This document shows positions 10,440 through 16,458 of a stretch of 64,000 nt of DNA, piece after piece. The DNA is from Dehalococcoidia bacterium (GTDB lineage Bacteria; Chloroflexota; Dehalococcoidia; Lucifugimonadales; JADFKI01). How positions within the stretch are numbered: position 1 is the stretch's first letter; each line of letters begins with the position of its first letter. The translations under genes were made by a program, and so were the position numbers. The stretch covers positions 2,471,961-2,535,960 of the forward strand of contig OZ241333.1 of NCBI GenBank assembly GCA_965200085.1, written 5' to 3'. Below the pieces are notes generated by a model. It was not told the origin of the DNA, did no database searches, and saw only the letters and a list, made by a program, of their open reading frames with translations.

Positions 10440-10470
10440 AGACTGACGATCATCTAAATGGAGGCTACAC

Positions 10471-10896
10471 ATGGATTTCGAGCAAGTTATACCTTTTCTG
10501 GAGAGAAATCACAGAGGCGTCATCTCGACACAACGTCCTAACGGAGCGGCACATTCCAGCATCGTTGTCTGCGGCGCCTATGAGGGCAAAGCTGCATTCG
10601 TATCCGTTTACCCTCGCTCTCAGAAGATACGCAACTTGCGTCGCGATTCCCACTGCACTGTGCTTGCCGTTACCGAAGATTGGCGCGAATGGGTATCCGT
10701 AGAGGGTGATGCGGCGCTGTATGACTACGGAAATATGGATGGGGAGGAGATGCGGGTGATGCTGCGCAAGGTGTATATGGCATGCAGCAACACTGAGCAT
10801 CCGGACTGGGAAGAGTATGATCAGGCTATGATTGACCAGGAAGCGGTGATAGTACTGGTTACCCCTGAGCGCGTGTACGGCTTGCTGCGTAGTTAG
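10471..10896 (+). CDS. PPOX-class (pyridoxamine 5'-phosphate oxidase-like) probable F420/FMN-binding protein
   Basis: 141 aa. The pattern FLERNHRGVISTQRPNGAAHSSIV ... KIRNLRRDSHCTVL ... WVSVEG is typical of the split-barrel PPOX family. Confidence 0.7.
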   Translation: MDFEQVIPFLERNHRGVISTQRPNGAAHSSIVVCGAYEGKAAFVSVYPRSQKIRNLRRDSHCTVLAVTEDWREWVSVEGDAALYDYGNMDGEEMRVMLRKVYMACSNTEHPDWEEYDQAMIDQEAVIVLVTPERVYGLLRS

Positions 10897-10961
10897 GAAG
10901 GTTGCGGAATCTAGCGCATTTGCGCAGGGTGGATATGATATAATTACCCATATCTCGCTAC

Positions 10962-11051
10962 GGAGAGATGGCCGAGCGGACGAAGGCGCCGGTCTCGAAA
11001 ACCGGTATGGGCGCAAGTTCATCGTGGGTTCGAATCCCACTCTCTCCGCCA
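10962..11051 (+). tRNA. tRNA-Ser (anticodon CGA), class II with long variable arm, CCA encoded
   Basis: Acceptor stem GGAGAGA/TCTCTCC. Anticodon stem CCGGT/ACCGG with loop CTCGAAA. T-arm GGGTTCGAATCCC. 3' end GCCA. Confidence 0.92.
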
Positions 11052-11158
11052 TATATGTTTTTCAATTCAAAAAATCTAGCAGTGTTCATTCTGATTTTTG
11101 CTGGTTTTCCTAATTCTTACGAATCTGAAATTGATGAGTTTTTGAGGTTGGGCAGGTA

Positions 11159-11608
11159 ATGGCAAGGAGCGCAGCTTCCACAGTTGAAGAATACCTAAAT
11201 GAACTCACTCCCGATAGGCGTGAACAGATCGGTGTCGTGCGCGATGTAGTGTTAGACAACTTGCCGGACGGGTATGTGGAGTCTATGAACTGGGGGATGA
11301 TTTCGTGGGAGATTCCGCTGGAACGTTATCCAAATACTTACAATAAGCAGCCACTTATGTATGCCGCACTGGCGTCTCAGAAGAACTACATGTCGCTGTA
11401 TTTGATGTGCGTGTATGCGCATGACGGAGTGCAAACCGAGTTCGAGAGGCGCTTCAGAGCGAGCGGCAAGAAACTGAACATGGGCAAGTCCTGTGTGCGC
11501 TTCAAGAAGGTCGAAGACCTGCCAATCGACCTTATAGCCGAAACGATAGCATCGACTCCGGTTGAGGACTACATCCGAAGCTATGAGCTGGCGCGCAAAA
11601 AGAAGTAG
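11159..11608 (+). CDS. DUF1801 (YdhG-like) domain protein
   Basis: 149 aa. VEEYLNELTPDRREQIGVVRDVV ... KNYMSLYL ... MGKSCVRFKK is the typical DUF1801 pattern. Confidence 0.7.
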   Translation: MARSAASTVEEYLNELTPDRREQIGVVRDVVLDNLPDGYVESMNWGMISWEIPLERYPNTYNKQPLMYAALASQKNYMSLYLMCVYAHDGVQTEFERRFRASGKKLNMGKSCVRFKKVEDLPIDLIAETIASTPVEDYIRSYELARKKK

Positions 11609-11702
11609 AGCAGGACGGCGTCAATCTTATTCCTATCAATGTACTATCATTTTCTGTAAGATAGAGTGCGCCGTTAACGGCAATTTATCATACCTGTTTC
11701 GC

Positions 11703-11792
11703 GGAGAGGTGCTGGAGTGGACGAACAGGCACGACTGGAAATCGTGTGTGCCTTAAAGGGCACCAAGGGTTCGAATCCCTTCCTCTCCGCCA
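11703..11792 (+). tRNA. tRNA-Ser (anticodon GGA), class II, CCA encoded
   Basis: Acceptor stem GGAGAGG/CCTCTCC. Anticodon stem CACGA/TCGTG with loop CTGGAAA. Long variable arm. T-arm AGGGTTCGAATCCCT. 3' end GCCA. Confidence 0.92.
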
Positions 11793-11867
11793 TATACCCT
11801 GCCACGCATACACCATCCCTCACATTCATTAGCGAATTGACAATCTGAACGGGATTCGTGCGGGGAA

Positions 11868-12264
11868 TGCCAAGGAGGCCTGTAAGCCGAGTTCTGTATC
11901 GGATCCGCCCGTGGCAATGCCGCGAGGGAATCCGCCGGCGGCCATCTATCTAGCCTCGACGTTGCCGCCGAAGTCATGCAGCTAACCCGGAGAAGGGCCG
12001 GGCGCCCATTTTCTCCCTATTATGCCTTGCTCCGGATGGGGTTTGCCTGGACCTTTGATGTTACCACCAAAGCGGTGCGCCCTTACCGCACCTTTTCACC
12101 CTTGCCCCGAATGAATATATCGTGGCGGTATGTTTCTGTGGCACTTTCCGTCGGGTTACCCCGCCCCGCTGTTAGCGGGCATCCTGCCCGGTGGAGCTCG
12201 GACTTTCCTCTCTTCCGTTATACGGTTATACAACGTAAGAGCGGCCGCCCAGCCTCCTTGGCAA
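11868..12264 (-). ncRNA. rnpB: RNase P RNA, bacterial type A
   Basis: Minus strand reads GAGAGGAAAGTCCGAGCTCCACC (plus strand 12193-12212), AAGGGTGAAAAGGTGCGGTAAGGGCGCACCG and ACAGAACTCGGCTTACAGG. P1 pairs 5' CCAAGGAGGCTG with 3' CAGGCCTCCTTGG. The ends are approximate to within a few nt. Confidence 0.93.
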
Positions 12265-12443
12265 GTTATATTTTAACACTACCAGCGGAGGCGTATGAAG
12301 TTCGGAAAGACTTTAATACGAAATCGCGAGTGAAATCAGAAGCCGTAAAGCAGCATCTGCGACGGCAGTTTCAGGCATAGTTGACTCAATCTCATATCAG
12401 CCCTATGGACAGAATGTGTGATGATGGGTTATTCAGTACAAAT

Positions 12444-13826
12444 CTAATTTAATACTTCGATGGAGTCATCAGACACTATTATCTTGGAAATGTGTATGAG
12501 AAGGAAAGATTGTTGTTCTTCAAAAGACAGTGTGTCCCATTTCTGAATTGTCTCATCCACATCCCAGTCATGCTCCCAAGTTGCTGCACTGGTTCGTGCT
12601 TTGTCCAGCTGCTTAAGGTGGTCTTGTACCGCGCCAAGTCCGAATTCGCCGCGCGCCGCTCGCTTCAGATTCTGCAGGAAGCGCCGTTCCGCGTTTTTGA
12701 CTCGTTTGTCCCACATCGCCTGGACTTCTTGGTTGCGCTGTTTCGTGGCAACTCGGTTCTTAGACCTTGCTTTAGTTGTTGAACTTTCCTGGATGTGAGA
12801 CAGTACGGCAGCTTCAAGCGCCGGCGCCCTCCAAGTGTGATACCCGCACAGACTCTGATTGTTGCGACTTTGACACTGATAATATCGATAGACACCCTGC
12901 GCGCTGGCGCCGTCCTTGCGCTTCCAGGATTGTCTCCGCGTAACGCCCATCATCTTGTTCTCGCAGTATCCGCAGAAAGCCAAACCTGAGAGCAAAAACG
13001 GCTCGGTATTGACAGACCTGGAAGAAGGACGGCGAGCTTTTGTCTGATCTTGCGCCTTTCGGAACATCTGTGGGTTGATTATTGCTTCGTGCACTTTGGG
13101 CAAACGAAGTCCAAAGCGGTAATATGTGCCCGTGTAGGTGGGATTTCTGAGTATATCGCGGATGGTTACCATGTTCCATCGACCGCCGCGCCGCGTCTTT
13201 ATGTCTTGTTCGTTCAAATACTGCGCAATTAGGCGTAAACCAAGCCCTTCATTGATGTATTTGTCGTATATCAGATTTACCGTTTCGGCTTCCTGTTCTA
13301 CGATCTCAAGCGTACCGTCACTGCCGTTTTGATAGCCGAAAGGCGGCTTGCCTAACCCTTTACCGAGCATAGCCCGCCTGCGCATAGAATCTTTTATTCG
13401 TTCGCTGCGCGTTTTAGACACTCCGGCAGGTCCTAAGGAATCGAGGGCGTTTTGCAGTGGGTCGGGGATTTCATCATCTTCACAAATGACTTTGCACCCG
13501 GTTGCCTCAATCTCGATTATCGTCCGCACAACTTCTTCGAGGTCTTTGCCAAGGTGAGTGGTGTCCGGCACCACAACCAAAAAATTGCTTTCCGAACTTT
13601 CAATAAATTCCAGCATACGCCTATATTCAGGAAATCGACGAGTTGAACTGCCGGTGCCATTCCCATTTTCAGACGGGTTCTCATGTTCGCTGATTTCGTC
13701 CACAAAGACGGCGACTGGCTGATGGAGGTAGCGCTCGCAATAGACCTCAAATCGTTCGTGCAACTCATCAGCGTCTTCGTTGTGGTCGCTGTCAGTAATT
13801 CTTCTAATATATCTAATTGCACGCAT
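12444..13826 (-). CDS. Large serine recombinase homolog (resolvase-like N-domain, recombinase domain, zinc ribbon, coiled coil). The catalytic Ser/Arg residues are apparently substituted.
   Basis: Recombinase-domain motifs GKPPFGYQ, RWNMVTIRDILRNPTYTG and zinc ribbon CGYC...YYQC...C. The likely start is MRAIRYIRR at 13826, 8 nt after the upstream stop. The ORF-track start at 13988 would overlap the upstream gene. Confidence 0.8.
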   Translation of the reverse strand: MRAIRYIRRITDSDHNEDADELHERFEVYCERYLHQPVAVFVDEISEHENPSENGNGTGSSTRRFPEYRRMLEFIESSESNFLVVVPDTTHLGKDLEEVVRTIIEIEATGCKVICEDDEIPDPLQNALDSLGPAGVSKTRSERIKDSMRRRAMLGKGLGKPPFGYQNGSDGTLEIVEQEAETVNLIYDKYINEGLGLRLIAQYLNEQDIKTRRGGRWNMVTIRDILRNPTYTGTYYRFGLRLPKVHEAIINPQMFRKAQDQTKARRPSSRSVNTEPFLLSGLAFCGYCENKMMGVTRRQSWKRKDGASAQGVYRYYQCQSRNNQSLCGYHTWRAPALEAAVLSHIQESSTTKARSKNRVATKQRNQEVQAMWDKRVKNAERRFLQNLKRAARGEFGLGAVQDHLKQLDKARTSAATWEHDWDVDETIQKWDTLSFEEQQSFLLIHISKIIVSDDSIEVLN

Positions 13827-13833
13827 CGTATTC

Positions 13834-14544
13834 TTATTCCAAGTAAAGTATGCGCCGACAGTTATTACACTGCACGAGAACATCGCCGCTTCTGAGGCGT
13901 TGAGTGTCCGATCTCGGCAAAGCAACCCTACAAGCGCTGCAAATATCCCTTCCCCTGCCGAGTTCAACCTTGCTGACCGCTTGGCCACCCCGGCTCACTA
14001 ATAGAGCCTCATACGTAGAGAGCATCTGTGCCGGAAGATTTGACAGCATTTCGGCTCGGCTGTTGTGCAGCGTCTCAAGTTCGGCGCTTATATTCTGCTC
14101 TTGCAGTTGAAGCTGCGGCAAACGTTGTCTCCTTCGTTCTTCAAGCGCAGCCAAAGTTTGCCGCGCTCTATTTAGAACTTCTTGCGTTTGCTCGGCGTCA
14201 ACCATGCGCTCTAGCAGAACATCTTCAGCCTCTGTTATCTGACGGCGCAGCATAACCTGTTCTTCTTGAAGCGCGCCAAGTTCACGAGGGTTCGTTACTG
14301 AACCGCTGTAAAGCCGATTTTGGGTTGCCTGCTCGCGCTGCTCGAGCTGATCCACAATAAGTTGAGCATCCCGCCGTAAAGCAATCCGACTAATATATTC
14401 TGCTTCAATCTGTGCAAGCTGCTGCCGCGCTCGTATCAGGCTCGACTCGTCGGAAATCTCAGCACGTATTTCGTCCAATGCCTGCTGCTTTTCGGCGCGA
14501 TCCCAATCCAGTTCCTGCAGAATGTAAAGTTCTAATAACGACAC
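13834..14544 (-). CDS. C4-type zinc-ribbon coiled-coil protein (DUF164 / COG1579 type)
   Basis: Long coiled coil followed by CSACRVALP...QCNNCRRILY at the C-terminus. Confidence 0.8.
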   Translation of the reverse strand: MSLLELYILQELDWDRAEKQQALDEIRAEISDESSLIRARQQLAQIEAEYISRIALRRDAQLIVDQLEQREQATQNRLYSGSVTNPRELGALQEEQVMLRRQITEAEDVLLERMVDAEQTQEVLNRARQTLAALEERRRQRLPQLQLQEQNISAELETLHNSRAEMLSNLPAQMLSTYEALLVSRGGQAVSKVELGRGRDICSACRVALPRSDTQRLRSGDVLVQCNNCRRILYLE

Positions 14545-15009
14545 TTGTCCGCCTTTGGCGAGGACACATAAAGCATTTCGTTATATCCACTTTAATCACA
14601 TGTATATTCTTGTGTATAGTACAACTCGGTTCTCATTTGGCGTTTTTATGAGCATTCAGTTATATCAATATCAACAAATACAGAATAGGTTGTGCAGAAT
14701 GATTGACTTGCCGAAACGCTGTATGAAGTACGGACGGTATTGCTGCGACAAGGTTCACCGATATATAGTTTCTTCACTGCCTGACCATCTCCAATCCCTG
14801 CTTTATGCGAGCAATAATAATTCCGCGATCTGCCTGGGAAAGCCTGTTACGGAAAGCCTGTTGCGCAATCATCTCCTCAAATCGCTGCAATGGATGTATG
14901 CTCTTGTCATAAACTGGTATGATAGCTTTATTGATTCTTCACCACTGTGTTGTAATATGAAAGCTGAACCGGAAGATGCGGTTATGTATATTTGGAGGTC
15001 GTGTTTCGT

Positions 15010-16458
15010 ATGCTCTCTCCCAACTTCAGCAAGTTATTCCCGAAGACGAAAATCGTCTGTACACTCGGTCCTTCGACCGAATATGAGGAGATGATTGAAT
15101 CGCTGGTCAGGGAAGGAATGAGCATCGCCCGCCTCAACATGTCGCATGGCGATATGGAGACGCACACTACCACGTTTAAGCGAGTGCGGCGCGTGTCAGA
15201 ACGTTTCGGCATGCCGGTCGGCATTATGGTTGATGTACCGGGTCCTAAGTATCGGACAGGACCAACTGTGCCGGGTATACTGGAAATTAAAGAGGGCGAT
15301 CCGCTCACACTCACAAGTCGAGACATCACCGGGAATCAGTCGATAATATCGGTTGCTCCTCCCGGGATTCATCGAGACGCTATCGTGAATGGGACTATCC
15401 TGCTCGACGACGGATTACTCAGGCTTACCGTCGTAAGCGTAGATGGCGATGATGTGCGATGCAGCGTTCAGGTGGGCGGACGGGTTACGGAGCGCCGAGG
15501 CGTAGTAACACCGGGCAAATCGCCTTCACAACCCTCACTTGATGCCAATGCTAAGAAAGCGCTTGAGTTTGCTGCTCATCAAGGTGCGGACTTCGTTGCT
15601 CTTTCTATGGTCAACTCTGACACAGATGTGCAGACAGCGCGCGATATTTTGAATGGCTACAATGCGGATCCTCTGATAATCTCTAAAATTGAATCTGTGG
15701 AAGCGCTTGATAATTTCGACAGCATTCTTGATGCCAGTGACGGCATCATGGTAGCGCGGGGCGATATGGGCGTGCATGTGTCTCTGTATCGCATTCCCGT
15801 GATACAGAAGGATTTGATAGCCAAGTGCAACGCCGCCGGAAAGCCGGTCATCACTGCCACACAGATGTTGGAGTCCATGGTGCGCTCCCCGTCTCCCACG
15901 CGTGCAGAGGTAACGGATGTCGCCAACGCTATCTACGACGGAACGGACGCCGTGATGCTTTCCGGTGAAACTTCGGTAGGCTCTTATCCTGTCGAGGCTG
16001 TGTATGCTATGGTGCAGACGGCCATTGAAACCGAAAAGGTCCTTTCGTATGAGGATATTTTGCTGGCTAAATCGCAGCAGACTGAATACCAGCGCACTGA
16101 CGATGCCATTAGTTTTGCGGCGGTTCGCACTGCTCATCAGCTGGACGCGAGTCTTATTATCGCGTTTACGGAGAGCGGAAGCACTGCGGGCAGGGTATCC
16201 AAGTATCGTCCCAAGTCTCCTGTGCTTGCGCTTACTCCATACGAACACATACGCCGCCGCCTTACTATTCGCTGGGGCACGATACCTGTCATCGTAGCGC
16301 CACTGCTTTCGGGTGAAGATTTCGTCGAAATCGGAGAGGAACAGGCACGCAGGGTCTCCGGAGTTCGTTCGGGAGACTCTATAGTCTTAGTGGCGGGTCT
16401 TCCTATGGGTGTGCAGGGAAGTACCAACTTGATCCGAGCGATGACGATAGATTCATAG
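15010..16458 (+). CDS. pyk: Pyruvate kinase
   Basis: TKIVCTLGPS, ARLNMSHG, MVARGDMGV and ATQMLESM motifs. GGAGG lies 11 nt upstream of the ATG at 15010; the ORF-track TTG at 14992 overlaps that SD. Confidence 0.93.
   Translation: MLSPNFSKLFPKTKIVCTLGPSTEYEEMIESLVREGMSIARLNMSHGDMETHTTTFKRVRRVSERFGMPVGIMVDVPGPKYRTGPTVPGILEIKEGDPLTLTSRDITGNQSIISVAPPGIHRDAIVNGTILLDDGLLRLTVVSVDGDDVRCSVQVGGRVTERRGVVTPGKSPSQPSLDANAKKALEFAAHQGADFVALSMVNSDTDVQTARDILNGYNADPLIISKIESVEALDNFDSILDASDGIMVARGDMGVHVSLYRIPVIQKDLIAKCNAAGKPVITATQMLESMVRSPSPTRAEVTDVANAIYDGTDAVMLSGETSVGSYPVEAVYAMVQTAIETEKVLSYEDILLAKSQQTEYQRTDDAISFAAVRTAHQLDASLIIAFTESGSTAGRVSKYRPKSPVLALTPYEHIRRRLTIRWGTIPVIVAPLLSGEDFVEIGEEQARRVSGVRSGDSIVLVAGLPMGVQGSTNLIRAMTIDS

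What the first reader, a model, noticed from the sequence alone, without database searches (positions are those of the whole stretch)
12444..14544. Large serine recombinase homolog with substituted catalytic residues, coupled to a DUF164 zinc-ribbon gene and abutting rnpB
The 460-aa protein keeps the recombinase domain, zinc ribbon and C-terminal coiled coil of large serine integrases. Its N-terminal catalytic domain reads MRAIRYIRRITDSD where integrases have a motif such as MRALVVIRLSRVTD. The nucleophilic Ser aligns with Ile, with Thr next to it. The downstream catalytic D-R-x-x-R block aligns with PDTTHLGK. By hand alignment, the nucleophilic Ser and both Arg of that block are not conserved. 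The gene starts 8 nt after the stop of the DUF164/COG1579 zinc-ribbon coiled-coil gene, consistent with the same transcription unit. It ends ~180 nt from the 5' end of RNase P RNA, next to two tRNA-Ser genes. No flanking cargo or att-like repeats are visible. I infer a domesticated, DNA-binding but non-catalytic recombinase rather than an active integrase.
Basis: partly seen in the sequence, partly recalled or inferred. Interest (0 to 1): 0.6.

Follow-up and report, generated by a model that had tools for sequence, protein, structure and literature searches.

The report
Domesticated dead serine integrase in Chloroflexota
This gene encodes a protein that keeps the DNA-binding parts of a phage-type "large serine integrase" but has lost its cutting residues. 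It is an ordinary, vertically inherited chromosomal gene in many Dehalococcoidia/SAR202 bacteria, almost always paired with a zinc-ribbon protein linked to RNA polymerase, so an integrase appears to have been turned into a host factor of unknown role.

Summary
ORF 12444-13826(-) encodes a 460-aa protein with the full large-serine-recombinase (LSR) architecture. This rests on Pfam Recombinase and Zn_ribbon_recom hits and an AF2 model (pLDDT 89.5) whose best PDB matches are the SPbeta, phiC31, A118 and Bxb1 integrases.

The catalytic residues are gone:
- Ser10 maps to a variable column.
- Asp67 is Thr/Ser/Arg/Gly.
- Arg68 is His.
- Arg71 is variable.
- Only Tyr6 and Arg8 are largely kept.

It is neither a decaying integrase nor a mobile element:
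- About 149 of the 150 best-scoring 50%-identity clusters in a 1.8-billion-protein library lack the motifs.
- Every homologue that carries an organism name is from Chloroflexota/Dehalococcoidia.
- dN/dS for close pairs is 0.03-0.25.
- The DNA-binding domains are the best conserved parts.
- There are no att-like repeats.

A DUF164/CT398-type gene lies directly upstream in 80/80 related genomes, usually 6-10 nt away, and in 6 more distant relatives. rnpB follows on the same strand in 59/80, and in 7 of the 8 longer distant loci. It has its own extended -10 promoter.

Most likely this is a non-catalytic, site-specific DNA-binding protein that works with the RNA-polymerase-associated DUF164 factor. 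Its target and role are unknown, and the library searched held no description of such a family.

The parts
13834..14544 (-). DUF164/COG1579 gene (236 aa): CT398-like coiled-coil hairpin plus C4 zinc ribbon (CSAC...CNNC). It is the first gene of the two-gene operon.
   Evidence: Pfam PF24481 (6e-13) and PF02591 (9e-10). PDB sequence match to CT398 4ilo. A homologue lies directly upstream of the pseudo-recombinase in 80/80 loci and in 6 distant relatives.
13827..13833 (-). 7-nt spacer between the DUF164 stop codon and the pseudo-recombinase ATG, suggesting translational coupling.
   Evidence: The spacer is exactly 7 nt in 38/80 loci and 6-10 nt in 62/80. It is 3-6 nt in five of the six distant relatives that keep DUF164 and 120 nt in the sixth.
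12444..13826 (-). Pseudo-recombinase gene (460 aa plus stop): full LSR architecture without the catalytic residues.
   Evidence: Exact protein P0001 lies on a 2.83-Mb contig.
13422..13826 (-). Degenerate resolvase-fold N-terminal domain (res 1-135): beta1 2-8, alphaA 19-32, beta2 36-43, beta3 83-86, beta4 112-115.
   Evidence: AF2 secondary structure. Foldseek matches to TP901-1, Sin and gamma-delta catalytic domains. Partial PF00239 hit. dN/dS 0.06-0.4.
13794..13805 (-). Former nucleophile site, res 8-11 (R-R-I-T). The R8 equivalent is kept. R9 is an insertion private to this genome. No Ser is present.
13542..13568 (-). Former D67-R68-x-G70-R71 block, res 87-95 (PDTTHLGKD): D67 is Thr90, R68 is His91, G70 is Gly93, R71 is Lys94.
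   Evidence: hhalign. Column counts over 81 sequences.
13017..13421 (-). Helix E remnant, GxGLGKPPxGY linker and recombinase domain (res 136-270).
   Evidence: PF07508. 36 of 117 columns (res 154-270) are at least 95% conserved. Alignment to A118 and SPbeta integrases.
12792..13016 (-). Zinc beta-ribbon domain (res 271-345) with Cys285, Cys288, Cys318 and Cys327, all four invariant in the close family.
   Evidence: PF13408. Invariant columns. It is the most conserved segment, with 33 of 75 columns at least 95% conserved.
12447..12791 (-). Coiled-coil hairpin (helices 358-391 and 397-416) and C-terminal return strands (res 346-460).
   Evidence: AF2 model. Full-length Foldseek alignments to SPbeta and phiC31 integrases.
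12270..12299 (-). Promoter-like site for rnpB (TTCATA - 18 nt - TG-TAAAAT), ending 10 nt before the rnpB 5' end.
   Evidence: A TGnTAnAAT extended -10 lies at the same distance in nearly all 59 rnpB-containing loci.
11867..12260 (-). rnpB, bacterial class A RNase P RNA. It is a syntenic neighbour and is not shown to be part of the same functional unit.
   Evidence: RF00010, 310.6 bits. rnpB lies downstream on the same strand in 59/80 loci and in 7 of the 8 longer distant loci.
14992..16458 (+). Divergently transcribed pyruvate kinase, a conserved housekeeping neighbour.
   Evidence: PF00224 and PF02887. Present in most loci and in L082, L083 and L094.

Best explanation
The gene encodes a domesticated, catalytically inactive descendant of a large serine recombinase.

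Shown:
- The whole LSR body plan is retained: resolvase-fold N-terminal domain, helix E and linker, recombinase domain, zinc ribbon and coiled coil.
- The Ser nucleophile and the Asp67/Arg68/Arg71 block are missing across a large family whose named members are all Chloroflexota.
- The gene is chromosomal, syntenic, under purifying selection and not flanked by att-like repeats.
- It forms a tight two-gene operon behind a DUF164/CT398-type coiled-coil zinc-ribbon gene.

Inferred:
- The protein still dimerises through the N-terminal domain and helix E.
- It binds a specific, probably pseudo-palindromic, DNA site through the recombinase and zinc-ribbon domains, and it cannot cleave that site.
- It acts as a stoichiometric partner of the DUF164 protein. 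DUF164 homologues elsewhere associate with RNA polymerase and sigma factors.
- The pair would therefore tether or position RNA polymerase, or bridge DNA, at defined sites. The LSR coiled coil normally mediates protein-protein contacts and binds directionality factors, so it is the likely interface.

The nearby rnpB, and in some lineages RNase H, is a deeply conserved neighbour with its own promoter. That fits a role near RNA-processing or transcription housekeeping, but the link is unproven.
For: Architecture:
- Pfam, NCBIfam and PDB sequence hits.
- AF2 model with pLDDT 89.5, and Foldseek E 6e-23 to SPbeta integrase, 3e-15 to phiC31, 1e-14 to A118 and 2e-14 to Bxb1.

Loss of catalytic residues:
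- hhalign to small serine recombinases.
- Column counts over 81 sequences.
- 149 of the top 150 50%-identity representatives lack the motifs. The one canonical LSR among them (P0267, 168 bits) lies next to an XRE-type HTH gene and small ORFs, not next to DUF164.

Domestication:
- At least 153 species genomes, all those listed being Dehalococcoidia, SAR202 or Chloroflexota.
- Neighbours are housekeeping genes: pyk, pyrD-like, ruvB, yceD-rpmF, rpsP-rimM.
- No att-like repeats.
- dN/dS of 0.03-0.25 at dS below 0.5, including the N-terminal domain.
- The protein is more conserved than its DUF164 partner in 80/80 loci (median identity 51% against 38%).

DNA-binding parts under the strongest constraint: the recombinase domain and zinc ribbon have majority fractions of 0.76 and 0.80, against 0.52 for the N-terminal domain.

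Coupling to DUF164: 80/80 adjacency with a modal 7-nt spacer. It persists at 30-38% identity.

DUF164 as an RNA-polymerase-associated factor:
- MSMEG_4306 co-purifies with the RNAP beta subunit and with DNA (PMC7092591).
- AF3 predictions place ML1638 and CT398 on RNAP beta' (bioRxiv 10.64898/2026.07.15.738315).
- HP0958 and CT398 are linked to RpoN (PMC3372290).
Against: - No DNA target was found. A palindrome and k-mer search in 40 dereplicated loci gave only -10-like elements, and sequence conservation upstream of rnpB stops at about -20.
- No test of a physical interaction with DUF164 was possible.
- One clade (P0198, P0213, P0221, P0249) keeps the pseudo-recombinase without an adjacent DUF164 gene, so the partnership is not obligatory in cis.
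- Within the SAR202-like clade the former active-site pocket is itself well conserved (D88, H91, C115, R140, S141). This leaves room for a residual or new chemistry.
- The RNA-polymerase association of DUF164 comes from distant phyla and partly from predictions.
Confidence: 0.7

Rival explanations
1. It is still an enzyme. The resolvase-fold domain has acquired a non-canonical active site, for example His91, Cys115 and Asp88, or Ser141 as nucleophile. It would carry out DNA or RNA cleavage or transfer chemistry different from canonical serine recombination.
For: Within the 81-sequence clade the former pocket is strongly conserved: D88 74/81, H91 77/81, G93 78/81, R140 81/81 and S141 79/81. C115 is invariant in the 85-sequence alignment. 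The N-terminal domain is under purifying selection.
Against: In the broader family (25-47% identity, same synteny) H91, D88, C115, R140 and S141 are not conserved. Only M1 and C30 reach 90% in the N-terminal domain, and C30 lies at the far end of helix A, away from the pocket. No Ser, Thr or Tyr is conserved at the end of beta1.
Confidence: 0.08
2. It is an RNA-linked factor. The protein, with DUF164, acts on or with RNase P RNA or RNA-DNA hybrids, for example rnpB expression or maturation, or R-loop handling with RNase H. It would not be a general DNA-site binder.
For: rnpB lies downstream on the same strand in 59/80 close loci. It is also there in 7 of the 8 longer distant loci, including clades that have lost DUF164 and have three genes inserted in between. 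RNase H lies directly downstream in L090 and L091. DUF164 genes neighbour rnhA in other phyla and rnpB in B. burgdorferi (PMC3372290). No terminator-like site separates the gene from rnpB.
Against: rnpB has its own conserved extended -10 promoter. 21 of 80 loci have no rnpB within 6 kb. No conserved operator lies upstream of the rnpB promoter. LSR recombinase and zinc-ribbon domains are known only as double-stranded DNA binders (established knowledge; 4kis).
Confidence: 0.15
3. It is an ordinary integrase remnant of a prophage or integrative element that inserted next to rnpB or tRNA-Ser and is now decaying.
For: It has LSR architecture and lies next to RNA genes, which are frequent integration targets. 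NCBIfam best hits are to CcrA, XisF and CcrB/C, but far below their cut-offs.
Against: The ORF is intact in 80/80 loci with dN/dS well below 1. The same housekeeping synteny holds across proteins only 27-77% identical. There are no att-like repeats and no phage or cargo genes. The only canonical LSR near the family boundary sits in a different context, beside an XRE-type regulator.
Confidence: 0.02

Closest known systems
Large serine recombinases / serine integrases (SPbeta SprA/YokA, phiC31 Int, Bxb1 gp35, Listeria A118/LI Int)
   Same: The domain order and fold match: resolvase-fold N-terminal domain, helix E, recombinase domain (PF07508), zinc beta-ribbon (PF13408) with four Cys, and an embedded coiled coil. 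Foldseek E values run from 6e-23 to 1e-14 over the full length, with sequence matches to 4kis and 9dxd.
   Different: The Ser nucleophile is absent. D67 is Thr/Ser, R68 is His and R71 is variable. There are no att sites, mobile element or directionality factor. The gene is vertically inherited in a housekeeping operon with DUF164.
Host-recruited but active LSRs (SpoIVCA, Anabaena XisF, SCCmec CcrA/B/C)
   Same: These are LSRs co-opted for host programmes. They are the best NCBIfam matches.
   Different: They remain catalytic and excise DNA elements. Scores here are 50-70 bits against equivalog cut-offs of 375-900, so this protein is not a member. A 2022 review of mobile-element exaptation mentions serine recombinases only as active invertases, integrases or resolvases (PMC8987985).
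DUF164/COG1579 proteins (H. pylori HP0958/FlgZ, C. trachomatis CT398/CdsZ, M. smegmatis MSMEG_4306)
   Same: The upstream gene has the same coiled-coil hairpin plus C4 zinc ribbon. The recurrent neighbours of this family, rnhA and rnpB, are seen here too.
   Different: In other phyla the partner genes are NIF3, rpoD/dnaG and rnhA. A recombinase-derived partner was not reported in either paper on DUF164 gene neighbourhoods that I read. Sigma-54 dependence was not examined here.
Catalytically dead mobile-element enzymes reused as DNA-binding regulators (for example TnpB-derived TldR repressors; from my own knowledge, not tested here)
   Same: The evolutionary logic matches: nucleic-acid recognition kept, chemistry lost, fixed in the host under purifying selection.
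   Different: The protein superfamily is unrelated, and no guide RNA is involved. The regulatory role here is only hypothesised.

Membership tests
Large serine recombinase (active enzyme family) | Resolvase catalytic domain with the Ser10 nucleophile at the end of beta1 | tested here: not met
   The S10-equivalent column is D/K/T/N/S/E..., with Ser in 6/81. The window protein has R-R-I-T there. The PF00239 hit covers only profile positions 41-104.
Large serine recombinase (active enzyme family) | Catalytic Arg8, Asp67, Arg68 and Arg71 | tested here: not met
   R8 is kept in 69/81. D67 is T/S/R/G with no Asp. R68 is His in 77/81. R71 is Arg in only 5/81.
Large serine recombinase (active enzyme family) | Recombinase domain (PF07508) following helix E and the G..P.GY linker | tested here: met
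   PF07508 E 2e-21. G164 and Y165 are invariant. Structural match to 4kis and 9dxd.
Large serine recombinase (active enzyme family) | Zinc beta-ribbon domain with four Cys ligands | tested here: met
   PF13408 E 1.5e-14. C285, C288, C318 and C327 are invariant in the close family.
Large serine recombinase (active enzyme family) | Coiled-coil motif emerging from the zinc ribbon | tested here: met
   The AF2 model has helices 358-391 and 397-416 and then returns to beta strands 448-459, with pLDDT about 90. This is a prediction only.
Large serine recombinase (active enzyme family) | Association with a mobile element and att sites | tested here: not met
   No att-like repeats. Housekeeping synteny in 80 close and 10 distant loci.
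Large serine recombinase (active enzyme family) | Site-specific recombination activity with a covalent 5'-phosphoserine intermediate | not testable with these tools
   This needs biochemistry.
DUF164 / COG1579 (upstream gene) | CT398-like coiled-coil hairpin plus C-terminal CxxC...CxxC zinc ribbon | tested here: met
   PF24481 at 49.4 bits (cut-off 27) and PF02591 at 38.9 bits (cut-off 29.1). Motifs CSAC and CNNC are present in the translation. Aligns to CT398 4ilo.
DUF164 / COG1579 (upstream gene) | Binding to RNA polymerase or a sigma factor | not testable with these tools
   Known or predicted only for homologues in other phyla.
Bacterial RNase P RNA class A (downstream neighbour) | Match to covariance model RF00010 above the gathering score | tested here: met
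   310.6 bits against a gathering score of 100, model positions 1-367.

The most novel reading that the evidence does not exclude
A whole bacterial lineage (Dehalococcoidia/SAR202 and related Chloroflexota) has fixed a catalytically dead large serine integrase as a core housekeeping protein. Together with the DUF164 zinc-ribbon factor, it would form an RNA-polymerase-associated, sequence-specific DNA-binding or DNA-bridging complex. That complex would be functionally tied to the ancient DUF164-rnhA-rnpB neighbourhood, for example controlling RNase P RNA transcription or handling R-loops. This would be the first serine recombinase converted into a non-catalytic transcription or nucleoid factor, and it would also give a handle on the long-unknown function of DUF164.
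Probability: 0.3. Interest if true: 0.8.

Novelty: new variant of a known kind. Interest (0 to 1): 0.66.

Why it matters
Serine integrases are known as mobile-element enzymes and genome-engineering tools. Host recruitment has so far been described only for active ones (invertases, SpoIVCA and XisF). A large, ancient, vertically inherited family that keeps the att-site-reading domains and the coiled coil but has lost the chemistry would be a natural "binding-only" integrase. That has three uses:
- It shows what else the LSR DNA-recognition and synapsis machinery can be used for.
- It gives a genetic partner, and hence a testable hypothesis, for the widespread but enigmatic DUF164/COG1579 proteins and their recurrent linkage to rnhA and rnpB.
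- It marks a lineage-specific core gene of SAR202/Dehalococcoidia, an abundant ocean and subsurface group with no genetic system.

It also warns annotation pipelines and integrase-mining efforts that "recombinase family protein" is misleading for this family.

Tried and rejected
- Att-like direct or inverted repeats around the locus: only short, chance-level matches.
- A shared operator or palindrome upstream of the DUF164 operon or downstream of the gene, searched in 40 dereplicated loci with 5-mer half-sites, spacers of 0-24 nt and 8-mers. Only -10-like TTTACAAT (9/40) and rnpB's own helices appeared, and shuffles reached the same counts upstream.
- A conserved site upstream of the rnpB promoter: comparing lineages where rnpB is adjacent with those where it is displaced, conservation stops at about -20.
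- rnpB as an obligatory partner: rejected. 21 of 80 loci have none within 6 kb (profile nhmmer; Rfam on 11 of them). A pyrD-like gene or ruvB follows there instead.
- A possible intermediate with a DRxGR motif (P0157): a false positive, because the motif lies in helix A (YDRFCR). The protein is a normal family member behind DUF164.
- Pseudogene: rejected by the intact ORFs and by dN/dS.
- Literature searches for inactive, exapted or pseudo serine recombinases and for DUF164-rnpB links: no description of this family. There is only an incidental figure note of rnpB downstream of the Borrelia DUF164 gene.
- Co-folding the two proteins was not possible with the tools.
Full report
**What is in the window.** Three features lie head to tail on the minus strand.
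- A 236-aa gene at 13834-14544.
- A 460-aa gene at 12444-13826. It starts at the ATG at 13826. The mechanically longest ORF reaches a GTG at 13988, but that overlaps the upstream gene, and every homologue begins MRA[IV]GY.
- rnpB at 11867-12260 (RF00010, 310.6 bits).

tRNA-Ser(GGA) at 11703-11792 and tRNA-Ser(CGA) at 10962-11051 follow on the plus strand. The spacer between the first two genes is 7 nt. The distance from the stop codon to the rnpB 5' end is 183 nt. Pyruvate kinase is transcribed divergently at 14992-16458.

**The observation.**
- Pfam finds Recombinase (PF07508, res 177-264, 2e-21) and Zn_ribbon_recom (PF13408, res 278-346, 1.5e-14).
- It finds only a marginal, partial Resolvase hit: 24.7 bits against a cut-off of 23.3. 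The hit covers profile positions 41-104 of 145, which misses the part of the profile holding the nucleophile.
- NCBIfam's best matches are CcrA, XisF and CcrC/B at 50-70 bits, far below their 375-900-bit cut-offs.
- The PDB sequence search aligns residues 142-353 to the A118 and SPbeta integrases.
- An AF2 model built on 85 family members is confident (mean pLDDT 89.5, pTM 0.76).
- Its best PDB matches by Foldseek are full-length LSR structures: SPbeta integrase 9y66/9dxd (E 6e-23), phiC31 9rah, A118/LI 4kis and Bxb1 9iu2. The N-terminal domain also matches the TP901-1, Sin and gamma-delta catalytic domains.

So the LSR body plan is really there, including a coiled-coil hairpin (helices 358-391 and 397-416).

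**The catalytic residues.** I aligned a profile of the family's first 175 residues to gamma-delta resolvase, Tn3 resolvase and Hin. The alignment puts MRAIGYfR on MRLFGYAR and ...VVVPdatHLGxD on ...LVKKLDRLGRD. Counts over the window protein plus 80 orthologues are:

| Resolvase residue | What the family has |
|---|---|
| Tyr6 | Y 78/81 |
| Arg8 | R 69/81 |
| Ser10 | D24, K13, T8, N7, S6, E6, I5 and others |
| Asp67 | T43, S18, R10, G8; never D |
| Arg68 | His 77/81 |
| Gly70 | G 78/81 |
| Arg71 | 13 different residues; R 5/81 |

The window protein carries a private one-residue insertion (R9).

**Not a remnant, not mobile.**
- The word-index search found 995 relatives. The top 120 are all full length, 440-508 aa and 50-81% identical.
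- A scan of one genome per GTDB species found 153 genomes with a relative. The 80 fetched are all Dehalococcoidia, SAR202 or Chloroflexota MAGs, many on megabase contigs or closed chromosomes.
- An exhaustive profile search of 1.84 billion 50%-identity representatives gave 266 proteins at E of 1e-30 or better, against 13,532 at 1e-10, which are generic LSRs.
- Of the best 150, all but one lack a Y-x-R-x-S N-terminus and a DRxGR block.
- The exception is P0267 (168 bits). It is a canonical LSR (MRAVAYYRVST..., IDRFGRD) and lies next to an XRE-type HTH gene and small ORFs, a different setting, as far as the 3-kb contig shows.
- One apparent DRxGR hit (P0157) was a false positive in helix A.
- All members that carry a name are annotated only as [quoted passage not shown].
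- Around the window gene there are no att-like repeats.
- Nei-Gojobori dN/dS for pairs with dS of 0.07-0.5 is 0.03-0.25 overall, 0.06-0.43 for residues 1-135 and 0.0-0.24 for the rest. The degenerate domain is therefore also under selection.
- By domain, the recombinase domain and zinc ribbon are the most conserved, with majority-residue fractions of 0.76 and 0.80. Helix D/E scores 0.74, the N-terminal domain 0.52 and the coiled coil 0.49.
- The four zinc-ribbon cysteines are invariant within the close family and conserved in at least 90% of the broader alignment.

**Coupling to DUF164.**
- The upstream gene is a CT398_CC plus Zn_ribbon_9 protein. It aligns to CT398, PDB 4ilo.
- In all 80 loci a homologue lies immediately upstream on the same strand.
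- The spacer is exactly 7 nt in 38 loci and 6-10 nt in 62.
- The pairing persists in relatives only 30-38% identical: P0165, P0159, P0150, P0176, P0178 and P0157. The spacer there is 3-6 nt in five of them and 120 nt in one.
- One clade (P0198, P0213, P0221, P0249) has the pseudo-recombinase without DUF164. It sits in the same yceD-rpmF-divergent position that P0159 and P0176 occupy with DUF164, which suggests secondary loss or relocation.
- The pseudo-recombinase is more conserved than DUF164 in 80/80 loci, with median identity to the window proteins of 51% against 38%.

**rnpB and RNase H.**
- rnpB follows on the same strand in 59 of 80 loci. In most it is within about 20-200 nt, and in a few it is displaced by inserted DNA.
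- The other 21 loci have none within 6 kb (profile nhmmer; Rfam on 11 of them). A pyrD-like gene or a convergent ruvB follows there instead.
- rnpB also appears downstream in 7 of the 8 longer distant loci. This includes the DUF164-less clade, where a three-gene ABC transporter is intercalated.
- rnpB has its own promoter. In the window it is TTCATA-18-TGTTAAAAT, ending 10 nt before the 5' end. A TGnTAnAAT element sits 7-10 nt upstream in nearly all loci. In four loci the stop codon is only 7-25 nt from rnpB, so the promoter must lie within the coding sequence.
- In two lineages RNase H (PF00075) lies directly downstream of the pseudo-recombinase.
- DUF164 genes neighbour NIF3, rpoD/dnaG and rnhA in other phyla. 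In Borrelia the DUF164 gene also neighbours rnpB (PMC3372290; PMC8469502).
- So the recombinase-derived gene sits inside an old DUF164-(rnhA)-rnpB neighbourhood.

**How it most likely works.**

Shown: the fold and domain set, the loss of catalytic residues, purifying selection, vertical inheritance, and operonic coupling to DUF164.

Inferred:
- The protein binds a specific DNA site through the recombinase domain and zinc ribbon, probably as a dimer through the retained N-terminal domain and helix E.
- It cannot cleave that site.
- It works stoichiometrically with the DUF164 protein.

For DUF164, evidence from other phyla points to RNA polymerase:
- MSMEG_4306 was recovered in an RNAP beta-subunit pull-down, and DNA co-purified with the tagged protein after crosslinking (PMC7092591).
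- AF3 models place ML1638 and CT398 on beta' with the coiled coil reaching the sigma site (bioRxiv 10.64898/2026.07.15.738315).
- HP0958 and CT398 bind or stabilise RpoN.

The pair would therefore link a sequence-reading module to RNA polymerase, or bridge DNA sites. I could not find the DNA target and could not test the interaction.

**Rivals.**
- A new active site in the old pocket. D88, H91, C115, R140 and S141 are well conserved in the SAR202-like clade but are lost in the broader family, where only C30 persists. About 0.08.
- An RNA-linked role, through rnpB or RNase H. The deep synteny is striking, but rnpB is independently promoted and not universal. About 0.15.
- A decaying integrase. 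Refuted; about 0.02.

**Novelty.** Searches of the held literature found no description of an inactive or exapted LSR or of this gene pair. A 2022 review of mobile-element exaptation mentions serine recombinases only as active enzymes. I rate it a new variant of a known kind: an LSR-derived pseudo-enzyme fixed as a host gene. It is robustly established as a family, but its function is still hypothetical.

Noticed in passing
window 12270-12299 (-); L001-L080 upstream of rnpB: rnpB carries a conserved extended -10 promoter (TGnTAnAAT) 7-10 nt before its 5' end in nearly all loci. In L011, L032, L061 and L039 the pseudo-recombinase stop codon is only 7-25 nt from rnpB, so the promoter must overlap the coding sequence.
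   Followed up: partly
L086 8147-8555, L088 8179-8563, L093 8324-8695, L085 3982-4337, L094 5562-5999, L082 7057-7479, L092 6737-7119: rnpB stays downstream on the same strand in relatives only 27-33% identical, even where DUF164 is absent and a three-gene ABC transporter is inserted. This linkage is unusually deep, and I have no explanation for it.
   Followed up: partly
L090 1518-1907; L091 5622-6017: An RNase H gene (PF00075) lies directly downstream of the pseudo-recombinase in two lineages. L091 reads DUF164 - pseudo-recombinase - RNase H - rpsP - KH - rimM. This mirrors the DUF164-rnhA synteny reported in other phyla.
   Followed up: partly
window 13737-13739 (Cys30); also res 88, 91, 115, 140, 141: Cys30, at the end of helix A, is the only N-terminal-domain residue besides Met1 kept in at least 90% of the broad family. 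D88, H91, C115, R140 and S141 are near-invariant only in the SAR202-like clade.
   Followed up: no
window ~13641-13688 (res ~47-62, ENPSENGNGTGSS): A low-complexity, low-pLDDT insert after beta2 varies greatly in length between orthologues. It is about 40 residues longer in P0026 and P0027.
   Followed up: no
window 13800-13802 (Arg9): The window protein alone, among 81 orthologues, has a one-residue insertion (R9) right at the former nucleophile position.
   Followed up: yes
window 10465-11159 and 11562-11977: Several listed ORFs (10465..11052-, 10968..11159+, 11753..11977-, 11976..12380+) merely overlap the tRNA-Ser genes and rnpB and are almost certainly not genes. Real neighbours are a PNPOx-like gene (10471-10896) and a DUF1801 gene (11159-11608) between the two tRNA-Ser genes.
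   Followed up: partly
L082, L083, L094 versus L085, L086, L088, L092, L093: Two alternative conserved divergent neighbours of the operon exist: pyruvate kinase, as in the window, or the yceD-rpmF-fabD-fabG-nusB-acpP cluster. This suggests one ancient rearrangement within the lineage.
   Followed up: no
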